Source: Squalus acanthias
Lineage: Eukaryota
Direction of reading: 5' to 3'
Assembly: GCA_030390025.1 (NCBI GenBank)
Contig: CM059431.1
Coordinates: 113,462,001 to 113,526,000 of the forward strand
DNA length: 64,000 bases
In this document: in pieces, positions 5,215 through 47,402 of the stretch
How the letters are laid out: each line of letters starts with the position of its first letter
Position numbering within the stretch: the first letter of the stretch is position 1
Position numbers and translations under genes: made by a program
Notes under the pieces: generated by a model
What the model was told of the DNA's origin: nothing
The model's input: the letters and a program-made list of their open reading frames with translations, nothing else
Database searches by the model: none

Positions 5215-5826
5215 CTCCCGACACTGGCCTCTGCAAAAAAAGCCCGCGAAAGTGAGTTTAAATACTCACTGTGCTGCTGCTCTCTCCGCTCCCGACACTG
5301 GCCTCTGCAAAAAAAGCCCGCGAAAGTGAGTTTAAATACTCACTGTGCTGCTGCTCTCTCCGCTCCCGACACTGGCCTCTGCAAAAAAAGCCCGCGAAAG
5401 TGAGTTTAAATACTCACTGTGCTGCTGCTCTCTCCGCTCCCGACACTGGCCTCTGCAAAAAAAGCCCGCGAAAGTGAGTTTAAATACTCACTGTGCTGCT
5501 GCTCTCTCCGCTCCCGACACTGACCTCTGCAAAAAAAGCCCGCGAAAGTGAGTTTAAATACTCACTGTGCTGCTGCTCTCTCCGCTCCCGACACTGGCCT
5601 CTGCAAAAAAAGCCCGCGAAAGTGAGTTTAAATACTCACTGTGCTGCTGCTCTCTCCGCTCCCGACACTGGCCTCTGCAAAAAAAGCCCGCGAAAGTGAG
5701 TTTAAATACTCACTGTGCTGCTGCTCTCTCCGCTCCCGACACTGGCCTCTGCAAAAAAAGCCCGCGAAAGTGAGTTTAAATACTCACTGTGCTGCTGCTC
5801 TCTCCGCTCCCGACACTGACCTCTGC
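5215..5826 (-). repeat. 74-bp tandem array (8 full units + 20 bp) forming the 5' end of the CR1
   Basis: Units start at 5215, 5289, 5363, 5437, 5511, 5585, 5659, 5733, 5807; nearly identical; each holds an AGTGAGT-ttaaat-ACTCACT inverted repeat. Confidence 0.97.
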
Positions 5827-38449: not shown

Positions 38450-41378
38450 CACCACGGCAGCTGTGGAATTTGAATTCAGTTAATTAAATAAATCTGGAAT
38501 AAGAAGCTAGTATCAGTAATGGTGATCATTAAACTACCGGATTGTCGTAAAAACCCATCTGGTTCACTAATGTCCTTTAGGGAAGGAAATATGCCGTCCT
38601 TACCTGGTCTGGCCTTTATTTGACTCCAGACCCACAGCAATGTGGTTGACGCTTAACGGCCCTCTGAAATGGCCTATTCAGTTGTAACAAATGTCTACGA
38701 AAAACAATAATAAAAATAAAACCGGACGGACCACCCAGCATCGAACTAGGCACAGACAATGACTCACCCAGCCCAGTCGACCCTGCAAAGTCCTCCTCAC
38801 TAACATCTGGGGACTTGTGCCAAAATTGGGAGAGCTGTCCCACAGACTAGTCAAGCAACAGCCTGACATAGTCATACTCACAGAATCATATCTTTCAGCC
38901 AATGTCCCAGACTCCTCCATCACCATCCCTGGGTATGTCCTGTCCCACCCACAGGACAGACCCACCAGAGGTGGTGGCACAGTGGTATACAGTCGGGAGG
39001 GAGTTGCCCTGGGAGTCCTCAACATTGACTCCGGACTCTATGAAGTCTCATGGCTTGAGGTCAAGCATGGGCAAGGAAACCTCCTACTGATTACCACCTA
39101 CCCCCATTCCTCAGCTGATGAATCAGTACTCCTCCATGTTGAACACCACTCAGAAGAAGCACTGAGGGTACTAAGGGCACAAATATACTCTGGCTGGGGG
39201 ACTTCAATGTCCATCACTAAGAGTGGCTCGGTAGCACCACTACTAACCTAGCTGACCGAGTCCTGAAGGACATAACTGCCAGACTGGGTGTGTGGCAGGT
39301 GGTGAGAGAACCAACACAAAGGAAAACCTACTTGACCTCATCCTCACCAATCTACCTGTCGCAGATGCATCTGTCCATGACAGTATTGGTAGCAGTGACC
39401 ATCGCACAGTCCTTGTGGAGATGAAGTCCTGTTTTCACACTGAGGACACCCTCCATCGTGTTGTGTGACACTTCCACTGTGCCAAATGGGATAGATTCAG
39501 AACAGATCTAGCAGCTCAAAACTGGGAATCCATGAGGCTCTGTGGGCCATTAGAAGCAGCAGAATTGCATTCCACCACAATCTGTAACCTCATGGCCCAG
39601 AAAATCCCTCACTCTGCCATTACCATCAAGCCAGGGGACCAACCCTGGTTCAATGAGGAGTGCAGAAGAGCATGTCAGGAGCAGCACCAGGAGTACCTAA
39701 AAATGAGGTGCCAACCTGGGGAAGCTGCAACACAGGACTACATGCATGCTAAACAGCAGAAGCAGCATGATATAGACAGGGCTAAGCGATCCCACAACCA
39801 ACGGATCAGATCAAAGTTCTGCAGTCCTGCCACACCCAGTCATGAATGGTGGTGGACAATTAAACAACTAACAGGAGAAGGAGACTCCATGAATAGCCCC
39901 ATCCTCAATGATGGCGGAGCCCAGCACACAAGTGCAAAAGACAAGGCTGAAGCGTTTGCAACCATCTTCAGCCAGAAGTGCCATGTGGATGAACCAACTC
40001 AGCCTCCTCCTGAGGTCCACACCATCACAGAAGCCAGTCTTCAGCCAATTCGATTCACTCAACGTGATATCAAGAAACGGCTTAGTGCACTGGATACATC
40101 AAAGGCTTTGGGCCCCAACAACATCCAGCTGTCGTGCTGAAGACTTGTGCTCCAAAACTAGCCGCGCCTCCAGCCAAGCTGTTGCAGTACAGCTACAACA
40201 CTGGCATCTACCCGACAATGTGGAAAACTGCCCATGTATGTCCTATCTACAAAAAGCAGGACAAATCAAATCCAGCCAATTACCGCCCCATCAGTCTACT
40301 CTCAATCATCAGCAAAGTGTTGGAAGGTGTCATCAACAGTGCTATCAAGCGGCACTTACTCACCAATAACCTGCTCACTGATGCTTAGTTTGGGTTCCGC
40401 CAGAACCACTTGGCTCCAGACCTCATTACAGCCTCGCCTCAAACGTGGACAAAAGATCTGAATTCCAGAGGTGAGGTGAGAGTGACTGCCTTAGACATCA
40501 AGGTGGCACCAAGGAGCCCTAGTAAAACTGAAGTCAATGGGAATCAGGGGGAAAATTCTCCACTGGCTGCAGTCATACCTAGCATAAAGGAAGATGGCTG
40601 TGGTTGTTGGAGGCTAATCATCTCCAGCTGCTTCATCAATGACCTTCCCTCCATCAGAAGGTCAGAAGTGGGGATGTTTGCTGATGATTGCACAGTGTTC
40701 AGTTCCATTCACAACTCCTCAGATAATGAAGCAGTCCATGCCTGCATGCAACAAGACCTGGACGACATTCAGATTTGGGCTGATAAGTGGTGTAAGATTC
40801 GAATCACAAGTCACACACAGATTACCCAAAGGGTCTTAGGAGTTGTAAGGCTTTTTATTAGAGAGCTACAGTTTAAGCATAATCAGATATTACTACATGC
40901 GATTGAAATAGATACAGTAGACATACAACCCGTGACAGATGAGGGCGATCTACGGTACTGGAATGGAACAAAACAACCGGACGGACGGTGAGGCAGTACG
41001 GTGGTCTCGGATTGGGTGGATTCCTACAGTCTGTGGCAGCGGTCACTTCCGTTGGGTCGTCCCGCGAGCTGTTGGAGGTGTTAGGCCATCAGCCAGCATT
41101 GATCCACCTCAGAGGCTAAACTTGACCAAGGTGTTAGGCCGTAGCCACCTCGGGGAAGCCTTCGCCCCTAACTGCCTGTTTTCCTCTCTCGGTCGCCTGT
41201 TTTTATACCTTATTTCGATGGGCTGGTGGATACCTGGTGTCAATCATTTTTACCCATCCCACTGTCCAATTACTAGGGAGAGGCTACCTCTGACAGCCCC
41301 CTCCCAGCCTCATGAGGTAATTTTCCTCCTTATCTCTGTTGTAAAGATCTTGTTGCCCTCTCGTAGACAGCTTGTTTA

Positions 41379-41932
41379 GAGTACTGTGTGCAGTTCTGGT
41401 CACCACATTACAGGAAAGATGTGATTGCACTAGGGAGGGTACAGACGAGATTTACAAGGATGTTGCCGGGAGTAGAGAATCTTAGCTATGAGGAAAGACT
41501 GGATAGGCTGGCTTTGTTTTCCTTGGAACAGAGGAGGCTGAGGGGAGACCTTATTGAGGTGTATAAAATTATGAGGGGCCTAGATAAAGTGGATAGAAAG
41601 GACCTATTTCCCTTAGCAGAGGGGTCAAAAACCAGGGGGCACAGATTTAAAGTAATTGGGGGAAGGTTTAGAGGGGATTTGAGGGGAAATTTCTTCACCC
41701 AGAGGGTTGTGGGGGTCTGGAACTCACTGCCTGAAAGGGTGGTAGAGGCAGAAACCTTAATCACATTTAAAAAGTACTTGGATGTGCACTTGGGATGCTG
41801 TAACCTGCAGGGCTATGGATCAAGAGCTGGGAAGTGGGATTAGGCTGGATAGCTCTTTGTTGGCCGGCGCGGACATGTTGGGCCGAAATGGCCTCCTTCC
41901 GTGCTGTAACTTTCTATGATTCTATGATTCTA
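41379..41932 (+). mobile_element. CR1 3' fragment inserted in the 3' LTR
   Basis: 151-aa ORF2 C-terminus, (ATTCTATG)n tail, 6-bp TSD TGTTTA; absent from the other LTR. Confidence 0.93.
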
Positions 41933-42519
41933 TGTTTATCCTACAGCTCCTTGCTGCATCACTTATCAGGCCTAGCTATGCCCAATCGAAGGCCTGTTTT
42001 TGTGTTCTGACCTCGTAATTCAGCTCTCTGTACAACTCTTTTTCTGACATGACTGGAATCTTTCTGTGTCATCAACTTAGGCAAACTGCTGATCTAGGGA
42101 ACCCGTAACAGACTATTATTTCTTTCGATCCACGATTTCTTACATCTCCCCACCTTGAGAACGAAATATCCTTATTGACTTCTCACAATCGGCTCTTGAC
42201 TATTCTAGCTAGTTCTTATTGCTCTCTCAACTTGGGCTTTAGTTAGTAGGGAGACTCGAAAATGAAGAAACCCCCTTCCTTAAAGTCCATTCCTTTGAGG
42301 GGGAGGAGCAACCTCTGACCCCTTACTCAAATTCAATTCACTGTTCCGATGTTCCAATTCTGCCCTGCCTGGGGTCTCCTCTGTTTGTTCTATCTTTCCT
42401 GATCTTAGCCCGCCTGGGGTCTCCTCTACATTGCTTCGGATCTTCTCTTTCAGTGTGCTCAATTAATTTGTTAGTGCTGGTTAGTCATAGACATGAGTAC
42501 ACAATTGGCTTATGCATCA

Positions 42520-43610
42520 AAGTCTTACTACATGGGTTACATATATCAAATACACTATCATTACAATTTCAGAACTACCAGAGCGTGTGAAATAATACGA
42601 AACTAAGAGTATGCTGATATATTAAGCCCAATATCCCACCAGTGTGAATCGTCCCCTATGCTGTCAATTTCAATATCTATTCTTGAGTTGTCTTGTTCTA
42701 AAACATAAAAATGGTTTAGGGAGGAGTTCAGTCCCATCACGAGCTCACTGAAACCCTCAGACAACAGGGGAATGTTGTACCCAATTGTGCCACATAATTG
42801 TGCAGCTCATACTTAAGTATCTCATTTACTGTCAGTTTCACTTGAGCATAGGTTTTGATATTGAGTAAAACGTGTTGGTTGATGGGACAGGTCTTGTTAG
42901 ACCCGTAAAGCATGGTAGTTACGGTAGTAGTGACACAGGAGGCACCACCAAAATCACCTCATACTGGATTCGTACTGGTTTTTCCCACGTTCTGTTATCT
43001 ACAAAACACAATTATTACAGTCACAGTTAAATTCAGTCTTACAATCATTTCAAGCGACATTACAGTTTAACATCAAATCAACAAGTCATGGACTTAAAAG
43101 ATTCTCCAAATCTCTCTTTTACTCGTATCCATCTTGTGGATAATTCTTACTAAACATGATTTCTCCTTAGCCCTGAATTGTCCCAATCCAGATTCCATGT
43201 AACTCTTCAGTTCTACTACGATTTAATTCCCTCTAACAGGTACCAGTGTGTTTAACTCTATTCTGATTATTTCATTAATTAGATAGTTTCTTGATGGAGT
43301 ATATGTCACTGCTTTAAAAGTTGTCTCACTCTCCTGAGCCACATTAACCATTTCATGTCGTACTGTTGTCAAGTAACTGAGCATGTCTGAGCCCCGTTCT
43401 TCAGTGCAAATTCACCATGCATTTCCGGATGGTAATTGCTTCATACGTGACAAATCACATTTGCACACTCACACCGGTATCTCAATATCGTGCCACATGT
43501 GCCATCCGATACAAGCCATTCTCGGGCTTTCAGGTGATCTTATCAAAAGATTGTCTGGCGATCTTTGCTCATCTTCCACCACATGGTCCCGATGTCTCGG
43601 GTAGTGGCCA
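42520..43610 (-). pseudogene. Decayed envelope/class I fusion-like membrane protein remnant
   Basis: Manual translation across frameshifts: SCVTTTVTTMLYGSNKTCPI, heptad-like LSEGFSELVMGLNSSLNHFYVLEQDNSRIDIEIDSI, HWWDIG, hydrophobic RIISHALVVL/EIVMIVYLIYV. Confidence 0.55.
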
Positions 43611-44903
43611 GACTATCAAATTCAGTTTTCTTAAAAAGTTCATTATAGGCAGGGATTCAAATGTCTCCAAGAGAAAGCTATTAATTTACTATTCGAAACT
43701 ACACTTTCCTGACTTTCACTAGAATAAAAATTCCCATTAATACCAGATTCTATCTCATTCATGAGTGTCTGGAGAAACTTTACTGTCCAATACAGTATTA
43801 AAGATAGAAAACATAGATCAAAGTTGTTTGGTGAACCAATTTAAAAAAAAACAGCTGCCAGCGGAAAGGGTTAACTCCTTTGCAAGTTTATAAGGTGGCG
43901 GGGCAAGTATTCTTATTAACTAAGCACGATACAGAACAGAAAATAAAACAAAAAAAAACAGTAAGTTACGTAATATTTCTCTTTGTTCTTTCTTCAGATG
44001 CGTTTTCAAATGACTGTGAAAATATTGAATACAACTGGAAAAAAATTAGTTTTCACATTTAAACTAAAGAAAACAAATTGCTTTGGAAAATTCACGATAG
44101 CAACCGCAACTCCAAGGTTAAATCTTAGATTGAAACTTAATCTTTTGTGAAACAAACTTTTTGTTTTTCTCAGTTTTTCCACACTAGCTTAACTTAAATT
44201 GTAGTTCAAAGTTTTATTTTCAATTCTGGGTGCACAATCTTATTCGCACATTCTTAAAACTTCCAAAATCCAAGACAAGTCTACAAAGGGTTAAACGGCT
44301 TTTAGCACAGAGAAGTGGGTGGAGCTAAAACAAACATAACAGACACTTTCTTTTAAAGACAGACTTTCAGACAGAAGGAATACTGCAGCTTCTTCAACAT
44401 TCATAGTCAGGAAAACTTTCACACTTTAACACACACTTTCACACAAACTGAAATTCCAGCATCCTTTAAGGTTCCTTTCATTCAGCAAATCTTGCGTTTT
44501 ATTTGTTTTGGCACAGATGCTGATAGCTTCCATGTCAGTAAAACTTTAAGTTTCACTTTTTTCTTCTTCTCTTAAATTGTCGTCTAAGCAGCTTTTCCTG
44601 GCTCTCCAAATCCCTGTTTTTTTCCTTCCTTTGCTGAGTTTTCAGATTGGTTAGCCTGCAACTTAGATTTTCTTCCCCTTCTCTATCTCCCCCTCTGTCC
44701 TGCACTTTATACTTCACCTCCTTCAGGCTATCTATCAACTGTTCCCAGTGATATGCCAATGCCATTGTATTTCTGGTTTTACCTTTAACTCACTCTCTCT
44801 CTCCCCTCTTTCAGGGAGTTCCCGACCCAGTCTTAAGCGATGATCACACGCGACCAAGCCCCTCCGGTCCCCACAACTGGAATCTTACAACTCCCAACTC
44901 TGT

Positions 44904-44922
44904 AATCCCACTTCTGACACCA
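44904..44922 (-). promoter_or_regulatory. Primer-binding site complementary to the tRNA-Leu(CAA) 3' end
   Basis: Minus-strand TGGTGTCAGAAGTGGGATT, 1 nt inside the 5' LTR. Confidence 0.85.
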
Positions 44923-47402
44923 CTGTAACATTTGAATCACACACAGATTACCCAAAGGGTCTTAGGAGTTGTAAGGCTTTTTATTAGAGAGCTATAGTTT
45001 AAGCATTATCAGATACTACTACATGCGATTGAAATAGATACAGAAGACATACAACCCGTGACAGATGAGTGCGATCTACGGCCTTGGAATGGAATGAAAT
45101 GACTGGACAAAAGGTGAGGCAGTACGGTGGTCTTGGATTGGGTGGATTCCTGCAGTCTATGGCAGCGGTCACTTCTGTTGGGTCATCCCTCGATCTGTTG
45201 GAGGTGTTAGGCCGTCAGCCAGCATTGATCCACCTCAGAGGTTAAAATTGACCAAAATTGGCCGTAGCCACCTTGGGGAAGCTTTCGCCCCTAACTGCCT
45301 GTTTCCCTCTCTCGATCGCCTGTTTTTATAACTTATTTCGATGGGCTGGTGGATACCTGGTGTCAATTATTTTTCCCCATCCTATTGTCCAATTACAAGG
45401 GAGAGGGTACCTCTGACAGCCCCCTCCCAGCCTCATGATGTCATTTTCCTCCTTATCTCTGTTCTAAAGGTCTTGTTGCCCTCTTGTAGACAGCTTGTTT
45501 ATCCTACAGCTCCTTGCTGCATCCCTTATCAGGCCTAGATATGCCTACTCGAAGGCCTGTTTTTGTGTTCTGACCTCGTAATTCAGCTCTCTGTACAACT
45601 CTTTTTCTGACATGACTGGAATCTTTCTGTGTCATTAGCTTAGGCAAACTGCTGATCTAGGGAACCCGTAACAGACTATTATTTCTTTCAATCCACGATT
45701 TCTTACAGTGGCAAGTAACATTCGCGCCACACAAGTGCCAGGCAATGACTATCTCCAACAAGAGAGAGTCTAACCACCATCCCTTGATATTCAACTTCAT
45801 TACCATCGCTGAATCCCCCACCATCAACATCCTGGGGGTCACCATTGATCAGAAACTTAACTGGACCAGCCACATAAACACAGTGGCTACAAGAGCAGGT
45901 CACAGGTTGGGTATTCTGCGGCGAGTGTCTCACCTCCTGTCTCCCCAAAGCTTTCCACCATCTACAAGGCACAAGTCAGGAGTGTGATGGAATACTTACC
46001 ACTGCCTGGATAAGTGCAGCTCCAACAACACTCAAGAAGTTCGACAACATCCAGGACAAAGTAGCCCACTTGATTGGCACCCCATCTACCACCTTAAACA
46101 TTCACTCCCTCCACCACTGGCGTACTGTGGCAACTGTGTGTACCATCTACAAGATGTACTGCAGCAACTCGTCAAGGCTTCTTCAGCAGCACCTCCCAAA
46201 ACCGTGACCTCTTCCACCTAGAAGGATAAGGGCAGCAGGCACATGGGAACACCAGCACCTCCAAGTATCCCTCCAAGTCACACACCAGCCTGACTTGGAA
46301 GTATATCGCCGATCCTTCATCATCATTGGGTCAAAATCCTAGAACTCCCCATCAACAGTACTGTGGCAGTACCTTCACCACACGGAATGCAGCAGTTCAA
46401 GAAGGCAGCTCACCACCACCTTCTCAAGGGCAATTAGGGATGGGCAATAAATGTTGGCCTTGCCAGCAAAGCTCACACCCCAGAAACAAATAAAAAGAAA
46501 TAAAGGCACTATATAAATGCAAGTTGTTGTTGTTGTATCAGTTTATGTGTTTGCTTAAACTAGTGAACAGAGAAAAATATAACCCTAATGCTGTTGGTAC
46601 CTCACCTTATAATTGTGTCATTGCATTTTGCATAGAAATATTTGAGTAACTTCACGTTTTTATTTTTTTACCAGTACAGTAATAAAACACTCTCCAGAGT
46701 ATAATTAAATGGTGGCAGGTCACCAATGTTTTAGCAAAAGGCAGGTCCTATTAATTTTGCCGTCAGACGAGTTTGCATTGCTGATATTATAAACAGTAAT
46801 GTTTTGTGAGGTAAGCATGTAATTATTTGTCTAGACCAGACAAGATTTGACATGCATTTGAATCAAAACAAACCTTCTATAACAGACAAGGAGAAAATAT
46901 ATCCTTTTAGTTTGTGCCATGTTTCTCAACAATTCCATTCTCTGTCCAACTAATGAAGTTATCAGAGAAGTCTGCCGTTGTTTATACGTGGTGTTAATAT
47001 AGGTTATTTAGACATAGTGGGGGAGGGGGATTATAAATGCCAGCGGGTGTCTGGCAGGAAACTATTGGTTTCAGTTAGTTTTCTGCTTGCCCGCAGGAGT
47101 ATCAGGCCATGGCTTTTAACCACAGGGCCTCACTAACATACCGCCATCCACCTCCCGCCTGTTCCAGAAAATCAGGCAGCCCTTGGCCGTCTACCAGCAC
47201 TCTGATAAGTGTGGGGAAGGGGGTTCCGGGAGTTGGGAACTGAGGGGAATATGGGGCAGGGGAGGACAAAACTTTCCTTGTAGGACCGACAGGAGCACGC
47301 CTGCTCCTCCTGGCCCCACAGTGGAAAGTAAAAAAACTTACCTGGAGGGCCTCTTCAGTTTTCCGATCCTTTTCGTGCTGATGTTTAAAGAAAAAACTTG
47401 CG

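What the first reader, a model, noticed from the sequence alone, without database searches (positions are those of the whole stretch)
42520..43610. LTR element with no recognisable gag/pol but a remnant envelope/fusion-like gene
Seen: between the PBS and PPT I find no gag, protease, RT or integrase motifs, but the 3' part translates across frameshifts into a Cys-containing beta-like segment, a heptad-like helix, a WWD membrane-proximal motif and a ~20-residue hydrophobic stretch just upstream of the PPT, where env lies. Established: this order is typical of class I viral fusion proteins, and lokiretroviruses of fish and other vertebrates carry Env related to paramyxo/pneumovirus F. Inference: an env-bearing non-autonomous derivative of an enveloped retroelement primed by tRNA-Leu, possibly an undescribed lineage.
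Basis: partly seen in the sequence, partly recalled or inferred. Interest (0 to 1): 0.7.

Follow-up and report, generated by a model that had tools for sequence, protein, structure and literature searches.

The report
Dead F-type envelope in shark retroelement
This is one of hundreds of copies of a gene-less retroviral element, in what is likely a shark genome, carrying the broken tail of an envelope gene whose intact relatives are predicted to fold like measles/RSV-type fusion proteins, and it was likely spread as a passenger by snakehead-retrovirus-like helpers.

Summary
On the minus strand lies a 4.9-kb LTR element with a 4-bp target duplication, a perfect tRNA-Leu primer site, a polypurine tract and no pol.
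- **Env remnant:** only 42958-42520 is shown to be env. It is the last ~150 residues of an Env family whose named members are all from cartilaginous fish. The upstream 600 bp matched nothing. A gag start survives.
- **Fold:** intact relatives are F-type (paramyxo/pneumovirus F, foamy Env) by profile, language-model and fold searches, though the model is low-confidence.
- **Dead passenger:** dN/dS is 0.95, flanking stops are shared across copies, and at least 725 genome matches carry the same internal deletion.
- **Mosaic:** the cassette rides three LTR types, and relatives with full pol carry a different env.
- **Classification:** their RT is closer to snakehead retrovirus (45%) than to lokiretroviruses (34%), while the Env is closer to Loki Env. 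The tree does not settle placement.

This is a new variant of a known kind. The scan reported the same F-type shark lineage twice before on other DNA of this genome; the mosaic non-autonomous family is what this report adds.

The parts
44924..45707 (-). 5' LTR (type A here), TGT...ACA, 784 bp
44905..44922 (-). primer-binding site, 18/18 complementary to the 3' end of host tRNA-Leu
44556..44789 (-). gag-start remnant: 24 codons like the gag start of lineage B, then 54 codons like the first frame of type-C elements
42960..44555 (-). upstream part of the shared cassette, including a 105-codon frame open in most copies (43411-43097); origin not identified
42520..42958 (-). env remnant: Cys-rich strand region, heptad helix, WWD, transmembrane stretch; internal deletion of about 15 residues; frameshifts near 42780 and 42570 and a stop near 42603
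42145..42156 (-). polypurine tract
40791..42144 (-). 3' LTR, interrupted by a later insert
41373..41932 (+). 3' end of a LINE inserted in the 3' LTR; ends in short tandem terminal repeats (CR1-like label from recall)
40787..40790 (.). left copy of the 4-bp target-site duplication
45708..45711 (.). right copy of the 4-bp target-site duplication

Best explanation
The element is a non-autonomous endogenous retrovirus that carries a dead fragment of an envelope gene predicted to be F-type, and it was likely copied in trans by coding-competent, snakehead-retrovirus-like helpers in the same genome. Shown: the cis signals (LTRs, PBS, PPT, TSD), the absence of pol, the Env homology of the last ~150 codons, neutral change among copies, and the same cassette under three LTR types. 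Inferred: an old provirus lost pol and most of env; its RNA was co-packaged with helper RNA; template switching repeatedly moved the dead cassette between the LTR/gag backbones of different helper lineages; helper RT and integrase then made and inserted the copies, primed by tRNA-Leu in types A and B. The env remnant would make no functional protein.
For: Env identity: all 5 named phmmer hits (of 6) are shark or ray proteins. F-type fold of intact relatives: ESM Atlas Baculo_F 0.93 and Fusion_gly 0.91; the top 6 of 9 PDB profile hits are F0, E 0.012-0.031; Foldseek top hits are RSV and hPIV3 F, E 6e-8 and 2e-7, with foamy Env further down; the 10 best VIA rows are all F-type, Z 6.5-7.8. Neutrality: pooled dN/dS 0.95 over 39 rows; flanking stops shared by 30-39 rows; one internal stop in 26 of 39. 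Copy number: 725 matches to a 21-mer across the deletion, control 0. Mosaic: sister copy L037 shares LTR (86-92%) and gag-pro-5'RT (81-89%) with pol-bearing L085, L086, L090, L094, L098, L099, but its 2.2-kb cassette has no DNA match to their env. Type C LTR is unrelated to A and B. 7 of 9 less-deleted copies keep an extra env-end piece, 87% identical to another env clade in the one copy compared. RT of L086: 45%/221 bits to SnRV, 34%/157 to Loki, 35-38% to foamy-like rows (P0020 identified as SnRV).
Against: No pol-bearing element with the window's own LTR type was found; the nearest was 69% (L097). No parent with a full, DNA-similar env was found among 69 fetched flanks of family-related hits. 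The fold model has mean pLDDT 44.6, TM-scores are 0.2 or less and Z is under 8. Direct Pfam and PDB searches with the remnant found nothing significant, and the remnant alone does not beat shuffles against Loki or SnRV Env, so the F-type call is transitive. The RT tree leaves shark rows and SnRV in an open polytomy, and the AU test does not reject grouping with Loki (p 0.37). The 105-codon frame is stop-free in 29 of 37 rows, and dN/dS in its shifted frames ranges 0.55-1.6.
Confidence: 0.78

Rival explanations
1. The lineage is a lokiretrovirus or its sister group, the first in cartilaginous fish, and the element is its deletion derivative.
For: The Env profile hits Loki Env at E 1e-10 to 6e-10 against 0.045 for SnRV Env. 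P0008 beats 200 of 200 shuffles against Loki Env. Relatives have a dual RNase H. AU p 0.37.
Against: RT is 34% to Loki against 45% to SnRV. The three Loki rows form their own clade (SH-aLRT 99, stem 0.93) without shark rows. The Loki RT motif pattern has 0 exact matches in this genome (a strict pattern). Loki Pol has a long spacer between protease and RT that the shark Pol and SnRV lack (by eye). The Loki paper lists Orectolobiformes with 3 genomes screened and 0 positive.
Confidence: 0.1
2. The cassette is kept because it holds an RNA signal (packaging, dimerisation or export) or encodes a short product, so it works as a functional module rather than a passenger.
For: It recurs under three LTR types and several 5' ends, and the 105-codon frame is open in most copies.
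Against: dN/dS 0.85-0.95. Several copies lack large parts of the cassette (L116, L117, L124). Pol-bearing relatives without env lack it altogether (L086, L087, L092, L095, L096).
Confidence: 0.1
3. The mixed LTR types arose after insertion, by ectopic recombination or gene conversion between proviruses, not during reverse transcription.
For: L123 has a type C LTR at its 5' end and a type A LTR at its 3' end.
Against: The window, L028, L037 and L042 have matched LTR pairs (93-98%) with 4-bp TSDs, so each hybrid form was itself reverse-transcribed and inserted.
Confidence: 0.07

Closest known systems
Snakehead retrovirus (SnRV) and clade Huo / class III ERVs, including elephant-shark CmiERV lineage I (PMC4422223, part 1 of 2 read; PMC6001957, passages)
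   Same: Nearest named virus by RT (44-45%). gag and pol in one frame split by one stop in SnRV and in relative L061. Same letters at the LTR-PBS junction. Env colinear over 287 columns, hhalign probability 93%, E 3e-7.
   Different: Different PBS sequence. SnRV's env frame is much longer and there is a 3' ORF. The shark Env scores higher against Loki Env. Monophyly with SnRV is unresolved. The window element codes for nothing.
Lokiretroviruses (PMC7947760; text parts 1-2 of 4, supplement part 11 and term searches)
   Same: F0-related Env with basic cleavage site, coiled coil and TM; dual RNase H.
   Different: RT more distant and outside the Loki clade in the free tree; no long protease-RT spacer; hosts named in the paper do not include cartilaginous fish.
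BHIKHARI (Bik-1/Bik-2) non-autonomous lokiretroviruses of zebrafish (10.1101/2024.03.25.586437, passages)
   Same: LTR elements without pol.
   Different: Bik keeps an intact, functional gag and has no env; this element keeps only dead gag and env scraps.
Foamy virus Env and paramyxo/pneumovirus F (PMC11468914, passages)
   Same: Predicted shared fusion-protein core.
   Different: RT lies outside the foamy-like clade (SH-aLRT 100); identity to these structures only 8-15%.

Membership tests
non-autonomous LTR retroelement | paired LTRs, TSD, PBS, PPT | tested here: met
non-autonomous LTR retroelement | no pol, yet many dispersed copies | tested here: met
Lokiretrovirus | RT falls in the Loki clade | tested here: inconclusive
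   free tree excludes shark rows and identity favours SnRV, but AU p 0.37; only 3 Loki rows, assigned by motif and by eye
Lokiretrovirus | Loki-type Pol traits (RT motif, long protease-RT spacer); taken from my reading of one consensus and two contigs, not the paper's definition | tested here: not met
Lokiretrovirus | Env related to Fusion_gly F0 | tested here: met
   intact relatives only:
Lokiretrovirus | dual RNase H (tether plus RH) | tested here: met
   relatives L061, L062, L068, L079; shared with all retroviruses, so not diagnostic
Lokiretrovirus | integrase sister to CGIN1; optional smc gene | not tested
   nearest Pol hits are only named NYNRIN-like
SnRV-like / clade Huo ERV | RT or Pol groups with SnRV | tested here: inconclusive
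   nearest named virus by score, but open polytomy; no ERV-L row
SnRV-like / clade Huo ERV | Env homologous to SnRV Env | tested here: met
   hhalign 93%, E 3e-7; weak pairwise, 3 of 200 shuffles reach it
Spumaretrovirinae | RT in the foamy clade | tested here: not met
gamma-type Env ERV | CX6CC and immunosuppressive domain in TM | tested here: not met
   not seen in alignment A1 by eye; no such Pfam family among 26 members

The most novel reading that the evidence does not exclude
Sharks and rays host a large, undescribed radiation of retroviruses that join a snakehead-retrovirus-like polymerase to a Loki-like F-type Env, in at least one member with an N-terminal Ig-like domain. SnRV's own Env belongs to the same fold. 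This would make the F-type fusogen the ancestral retroviral envelope, kept in Loki, foamy and Huo lineages and replaced later by gamma/beta-type Env.
Probability: 0.4. Interest if true: 0.7.

Novelty: new variant of a known kind. Interest (0 to 1): 0.45.

Why it matters
The window copy is an ordinary dead insertion. Its value is as a pointer. It ties a high-copy non-autonomous family to a chondrichthyan Env family that Pfam barely sees, links that family to both Loki Env and SnRV Env, and records env and LTR swapping between helper lineages. If F-type Env extends to SnRV-like retroviruses, the question of which fusogen the first retroviruses had becomes testable with natural open-frame genes. 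Nine literature searches showed no paper describing this family or an F-type SnRV Env. The library lacks most subscription papers, I did not check Dfam or Repbase, and the Loki supplement was cut.

Tried and rejected
- Pfam and PDB with window or sister fragments: nothing significant.
- Word-index search with the 147-codon frame: 0 of 433 candidates.
- PF00523 in the own genome: 0, with a silent control, so uninformative.
- Single-sequence fold of P0006: pLDDT 34, not used.
- ESM Atlas on the 105-codon frame: no usable hit.
- Upstream cassette as env or pol: no profile hit; a by-eye resemblance near 43530 is unsupported.
- L085-type, L121 and L040 env as the direct parent: rejected (27-33% protein identity, no DNA match).
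- Twenty type-C flanks gave no autonomous parent. Nine less-deleted copies are still non-autonomous.
- Shared Ig-like domain between P0008 and SnRV: not significant (9 of 500 shuffles); Pfam Ig_3 only E 0.038 on 1 of 4 N-termini.
- First RT tree lacked Loki rows and was superseded. The long-branch row L063_1757 was left out of the AU test.
- No RNA holder listed.
- Earlier-findings search by sequence: nothing.
- No absolute age is given, because the host substitution rate is an assumption in the one paper that offers it.

Full report
Anatomy. The element lies on the minus strand from 45707 to 40791. Its LTRs differ at 54 of 782 aligned bases (K2P 0.073), and the 3' LTR holds a ~560-bp insert. 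A 4-bp duplication flanks it inside a LINE reverse transcriptase; three other copies whose ends could be read also have 4-bp duplications, and a fourth was mis-bounded in my script. The PBS matches 18 of 18 bases expected from a host tRNA. The matching 22-mer occurs 238 times, and ARAGORN called tRNA-Leu(CAG) at 2 of 4 loci examined. The internal region is 2.8 kb with no pol. It begins with a gag-start remnant of mixed origin.

The env remnant. The window copy is broken by frameshifts near 42780 and 42570, where it differs from 18 and 19 of the 19 other copies examined. Several sister copies keep a natural 147-codon frame over 42958-42520. That frame found 6 proteins among 1.84 billion representatives; the 5 named ones come from Heptranchias, Pristiophorus, Heterodontus, Rhinoraja and Chiloscyllium. 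A later profile search gave 11 hits, the 7 named ones again sharks or rays. The host is therefore inferred to be a cartilaginous fish. The longest hit, P0006, has 83 matches in this genome. In alignment A1 the intact members show a basic cleavage site, a long helical region, a Cys-rich strand region, a second heptad, WW and a TM segment. The window's family covers only the last ~150 positions and lacks about 15 residues internally. The upstream 600 bp of the finding matched no Env or Pol profile better than controls.

Fold. The remnant alone matched nothing significant in Pfam or PDB, so the assignment runs through intact relatives. The P0006 ectodomain scored 0.93 with a Baculo_F cluster and 0.91 with Fusion_gly clusters. 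The A1 profile ranked six F0 chains first in PDB, weakly, and 3 of 26 members hit Fusion_gly at E 0.026 at best. An AlphaFold model of P0008 (mean pLDDT 44.6) returned RSV, hPIV3, Langya, Nipah, NDV and foamy fusion proteins in PDB, mononegaviral, baculoviral, foamy and walleye retroviral glycoproteins in BFVD, and ten F-type chains first by VIA, Z 6.5-7.8. Each result is modest; they agree.

Selection and spread. Over 39 rows (chosen by similarity, with at least one duplicate) mean identity was 93.6%. Pooled dN/dS was 0.95 in the env frame and 0.85 in the upstream frame. Stops around the frames are shared by 30-39 rows and one internal stop by 26 of 39. The gene was thus already dead when the family amplified. 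A 21-mer across the internal deletion has 725 matches with up to one mismatch, control 0; the DNA search had 2238 candidates, of which 40 were scored. Fifteen public runs from 7 coded organisms and 6 studies hold a quarter or more of the words, and all 4 runs laid had depth in 30 of 30 bins.

Mosaic origin. Sister copy L037 is 93% identical over the env region and keeps gag, protease and the start of RT. Of 20 loci fetched from the best hits to its RT start, six carry pol plus env matches reaching the C-terminal part, five carry pol without env, and four carry the cassette. L037's LTR and gag-pro are 81-92% identical to six of these pol-bearing loci, but its cassette has no DNA match to their env. 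The remnant is 27% identical to that env and 30-33% to other clades. A third, unrelated LTR type with another PBS carries the same cassette. Nine copies lack the internal deletion. They are still non-autonomous, and 7 of 9 keep an extra env-end piece at the junction, 87% identical to L049 env in the copy compared. Template switching in co-packaged RNA, established for retroviruses (own knowledge), is the simplest reading. No autonomous parent of the cassette was found.

Placement. A related provirus has gag, one stop, then protease, RT, tether, RNase H and integrase. An RT search returned frog and coelacanth Pol proteins at 54-55% and a protein that matches the SnRV row of the Loki paper's alignment; the 10,688-nt genome encoding it was fetched. 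Three Loki-type contigs were found by motif. L086 RT scores 221 bits to SnRV, 139-157 to Loki and 146-161 to foamy-like rows. The tree keeps Loki apart but leaves shark, frog, coelacanth and SnRV rows in a polytomy, and shark+Loki is not rejected. The Env profile prefers Loki Env yet also aligns with SnRV Env. So the lineage works like a lokiretrovirus at the envelope and looks like an SnRV-type retrovirus at the polymerase.

Literature. PMC7947760 (text parts 1-2 of 4, a term search, supplement part 11 and three supplement searches; the file was cut) defines Loki and shows no Orectolobiformes positives. PMC4422223 (part 1 of 2) places elephant-shark lineage I with SnRV. PMC6001957 and PMC8922424 (passages) define clade Huo. 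PMC11468914 (passages) links foamy Env to F. 10.1101/2021.11.23.469661 (parts 1-2 of 6) covers gamma- and beta-type Env in anamniotes and reports frequent Env-Pol recombination. Term searches in 10.1101/2023.10.26.564294, 10.1101/2024.03.17.585361, PMC12193657, PMC8672886, PMC10699275 and PMC13709493 showed no description of this family. Two earlier notes of this scan on other parts of this genome reached the same reading of the lineage; I saw them, after my notes, and they are not independent support.

Verdict. A real feature: a dead F-type env tail in a high-copy, mosaic, non-autonomous ERV. New variant of a known kind; interest 0.45.

Noticed in passing
L040:6582-9026 and L061:1225-7569 (G000:C3, about 136.03-136.04 Mb): A provirus of another family, with long open gag, pol and env frames, sits nested in a type-C copy; its Env N-terminus has a weak Ig_3 match (E 0.038).
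   Followed up: partly
L101:6131-9535: SnRV Env aligns with the shark Env profile over 287 columns, suggesting SnRV itself has an F-type fusogen; it had no Fusion_gly hit in Pfam.
   Followed up: partly
BFVD hits of model ma54d96b22844: Walleye dermal sarcoma virus and WEHV-1 Env rank 3rd and 9th (low TM-scores), hinting that epsilonretroviral Env may be F-type too; the sequence profile gave only E 0.18 on L130.
   Followed up: no
L123:5807-9901: A copy with a type C LTR at the 5' end and a type A LTR at the 3' end.
   Followed up: no
L121:5168-9294 and L116:745-4583: The same 5' module is followed by RNase H and a different env (L121) or by RNase H-integrase (L116): further mosaics or nested insertions.
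   Followed up: partly
G000:C1:142.59-142.85 Mb: About 14 closely spaced copies of the family, probably a tandem segmental array.
   Followed up: no
P0003, P0004, P0032: Annotated shark gene models (cadherin-related 5-like, fbxo15 isoform, Niban 1-like) include pieces of this Env family, either mis-annotation or exonisation.
   Followed up: no
window 5215-5826: Tandem array of 8.3 copies of a 74-bp unit, 99% alike.
   Followed up: no
G000:C13:49.37-49.40 Mb and C575: Matches to the tRNA-Leu 3' end recur every ~1154 bp, suggesting a tandem tRNA gene array.
   Followed up: no
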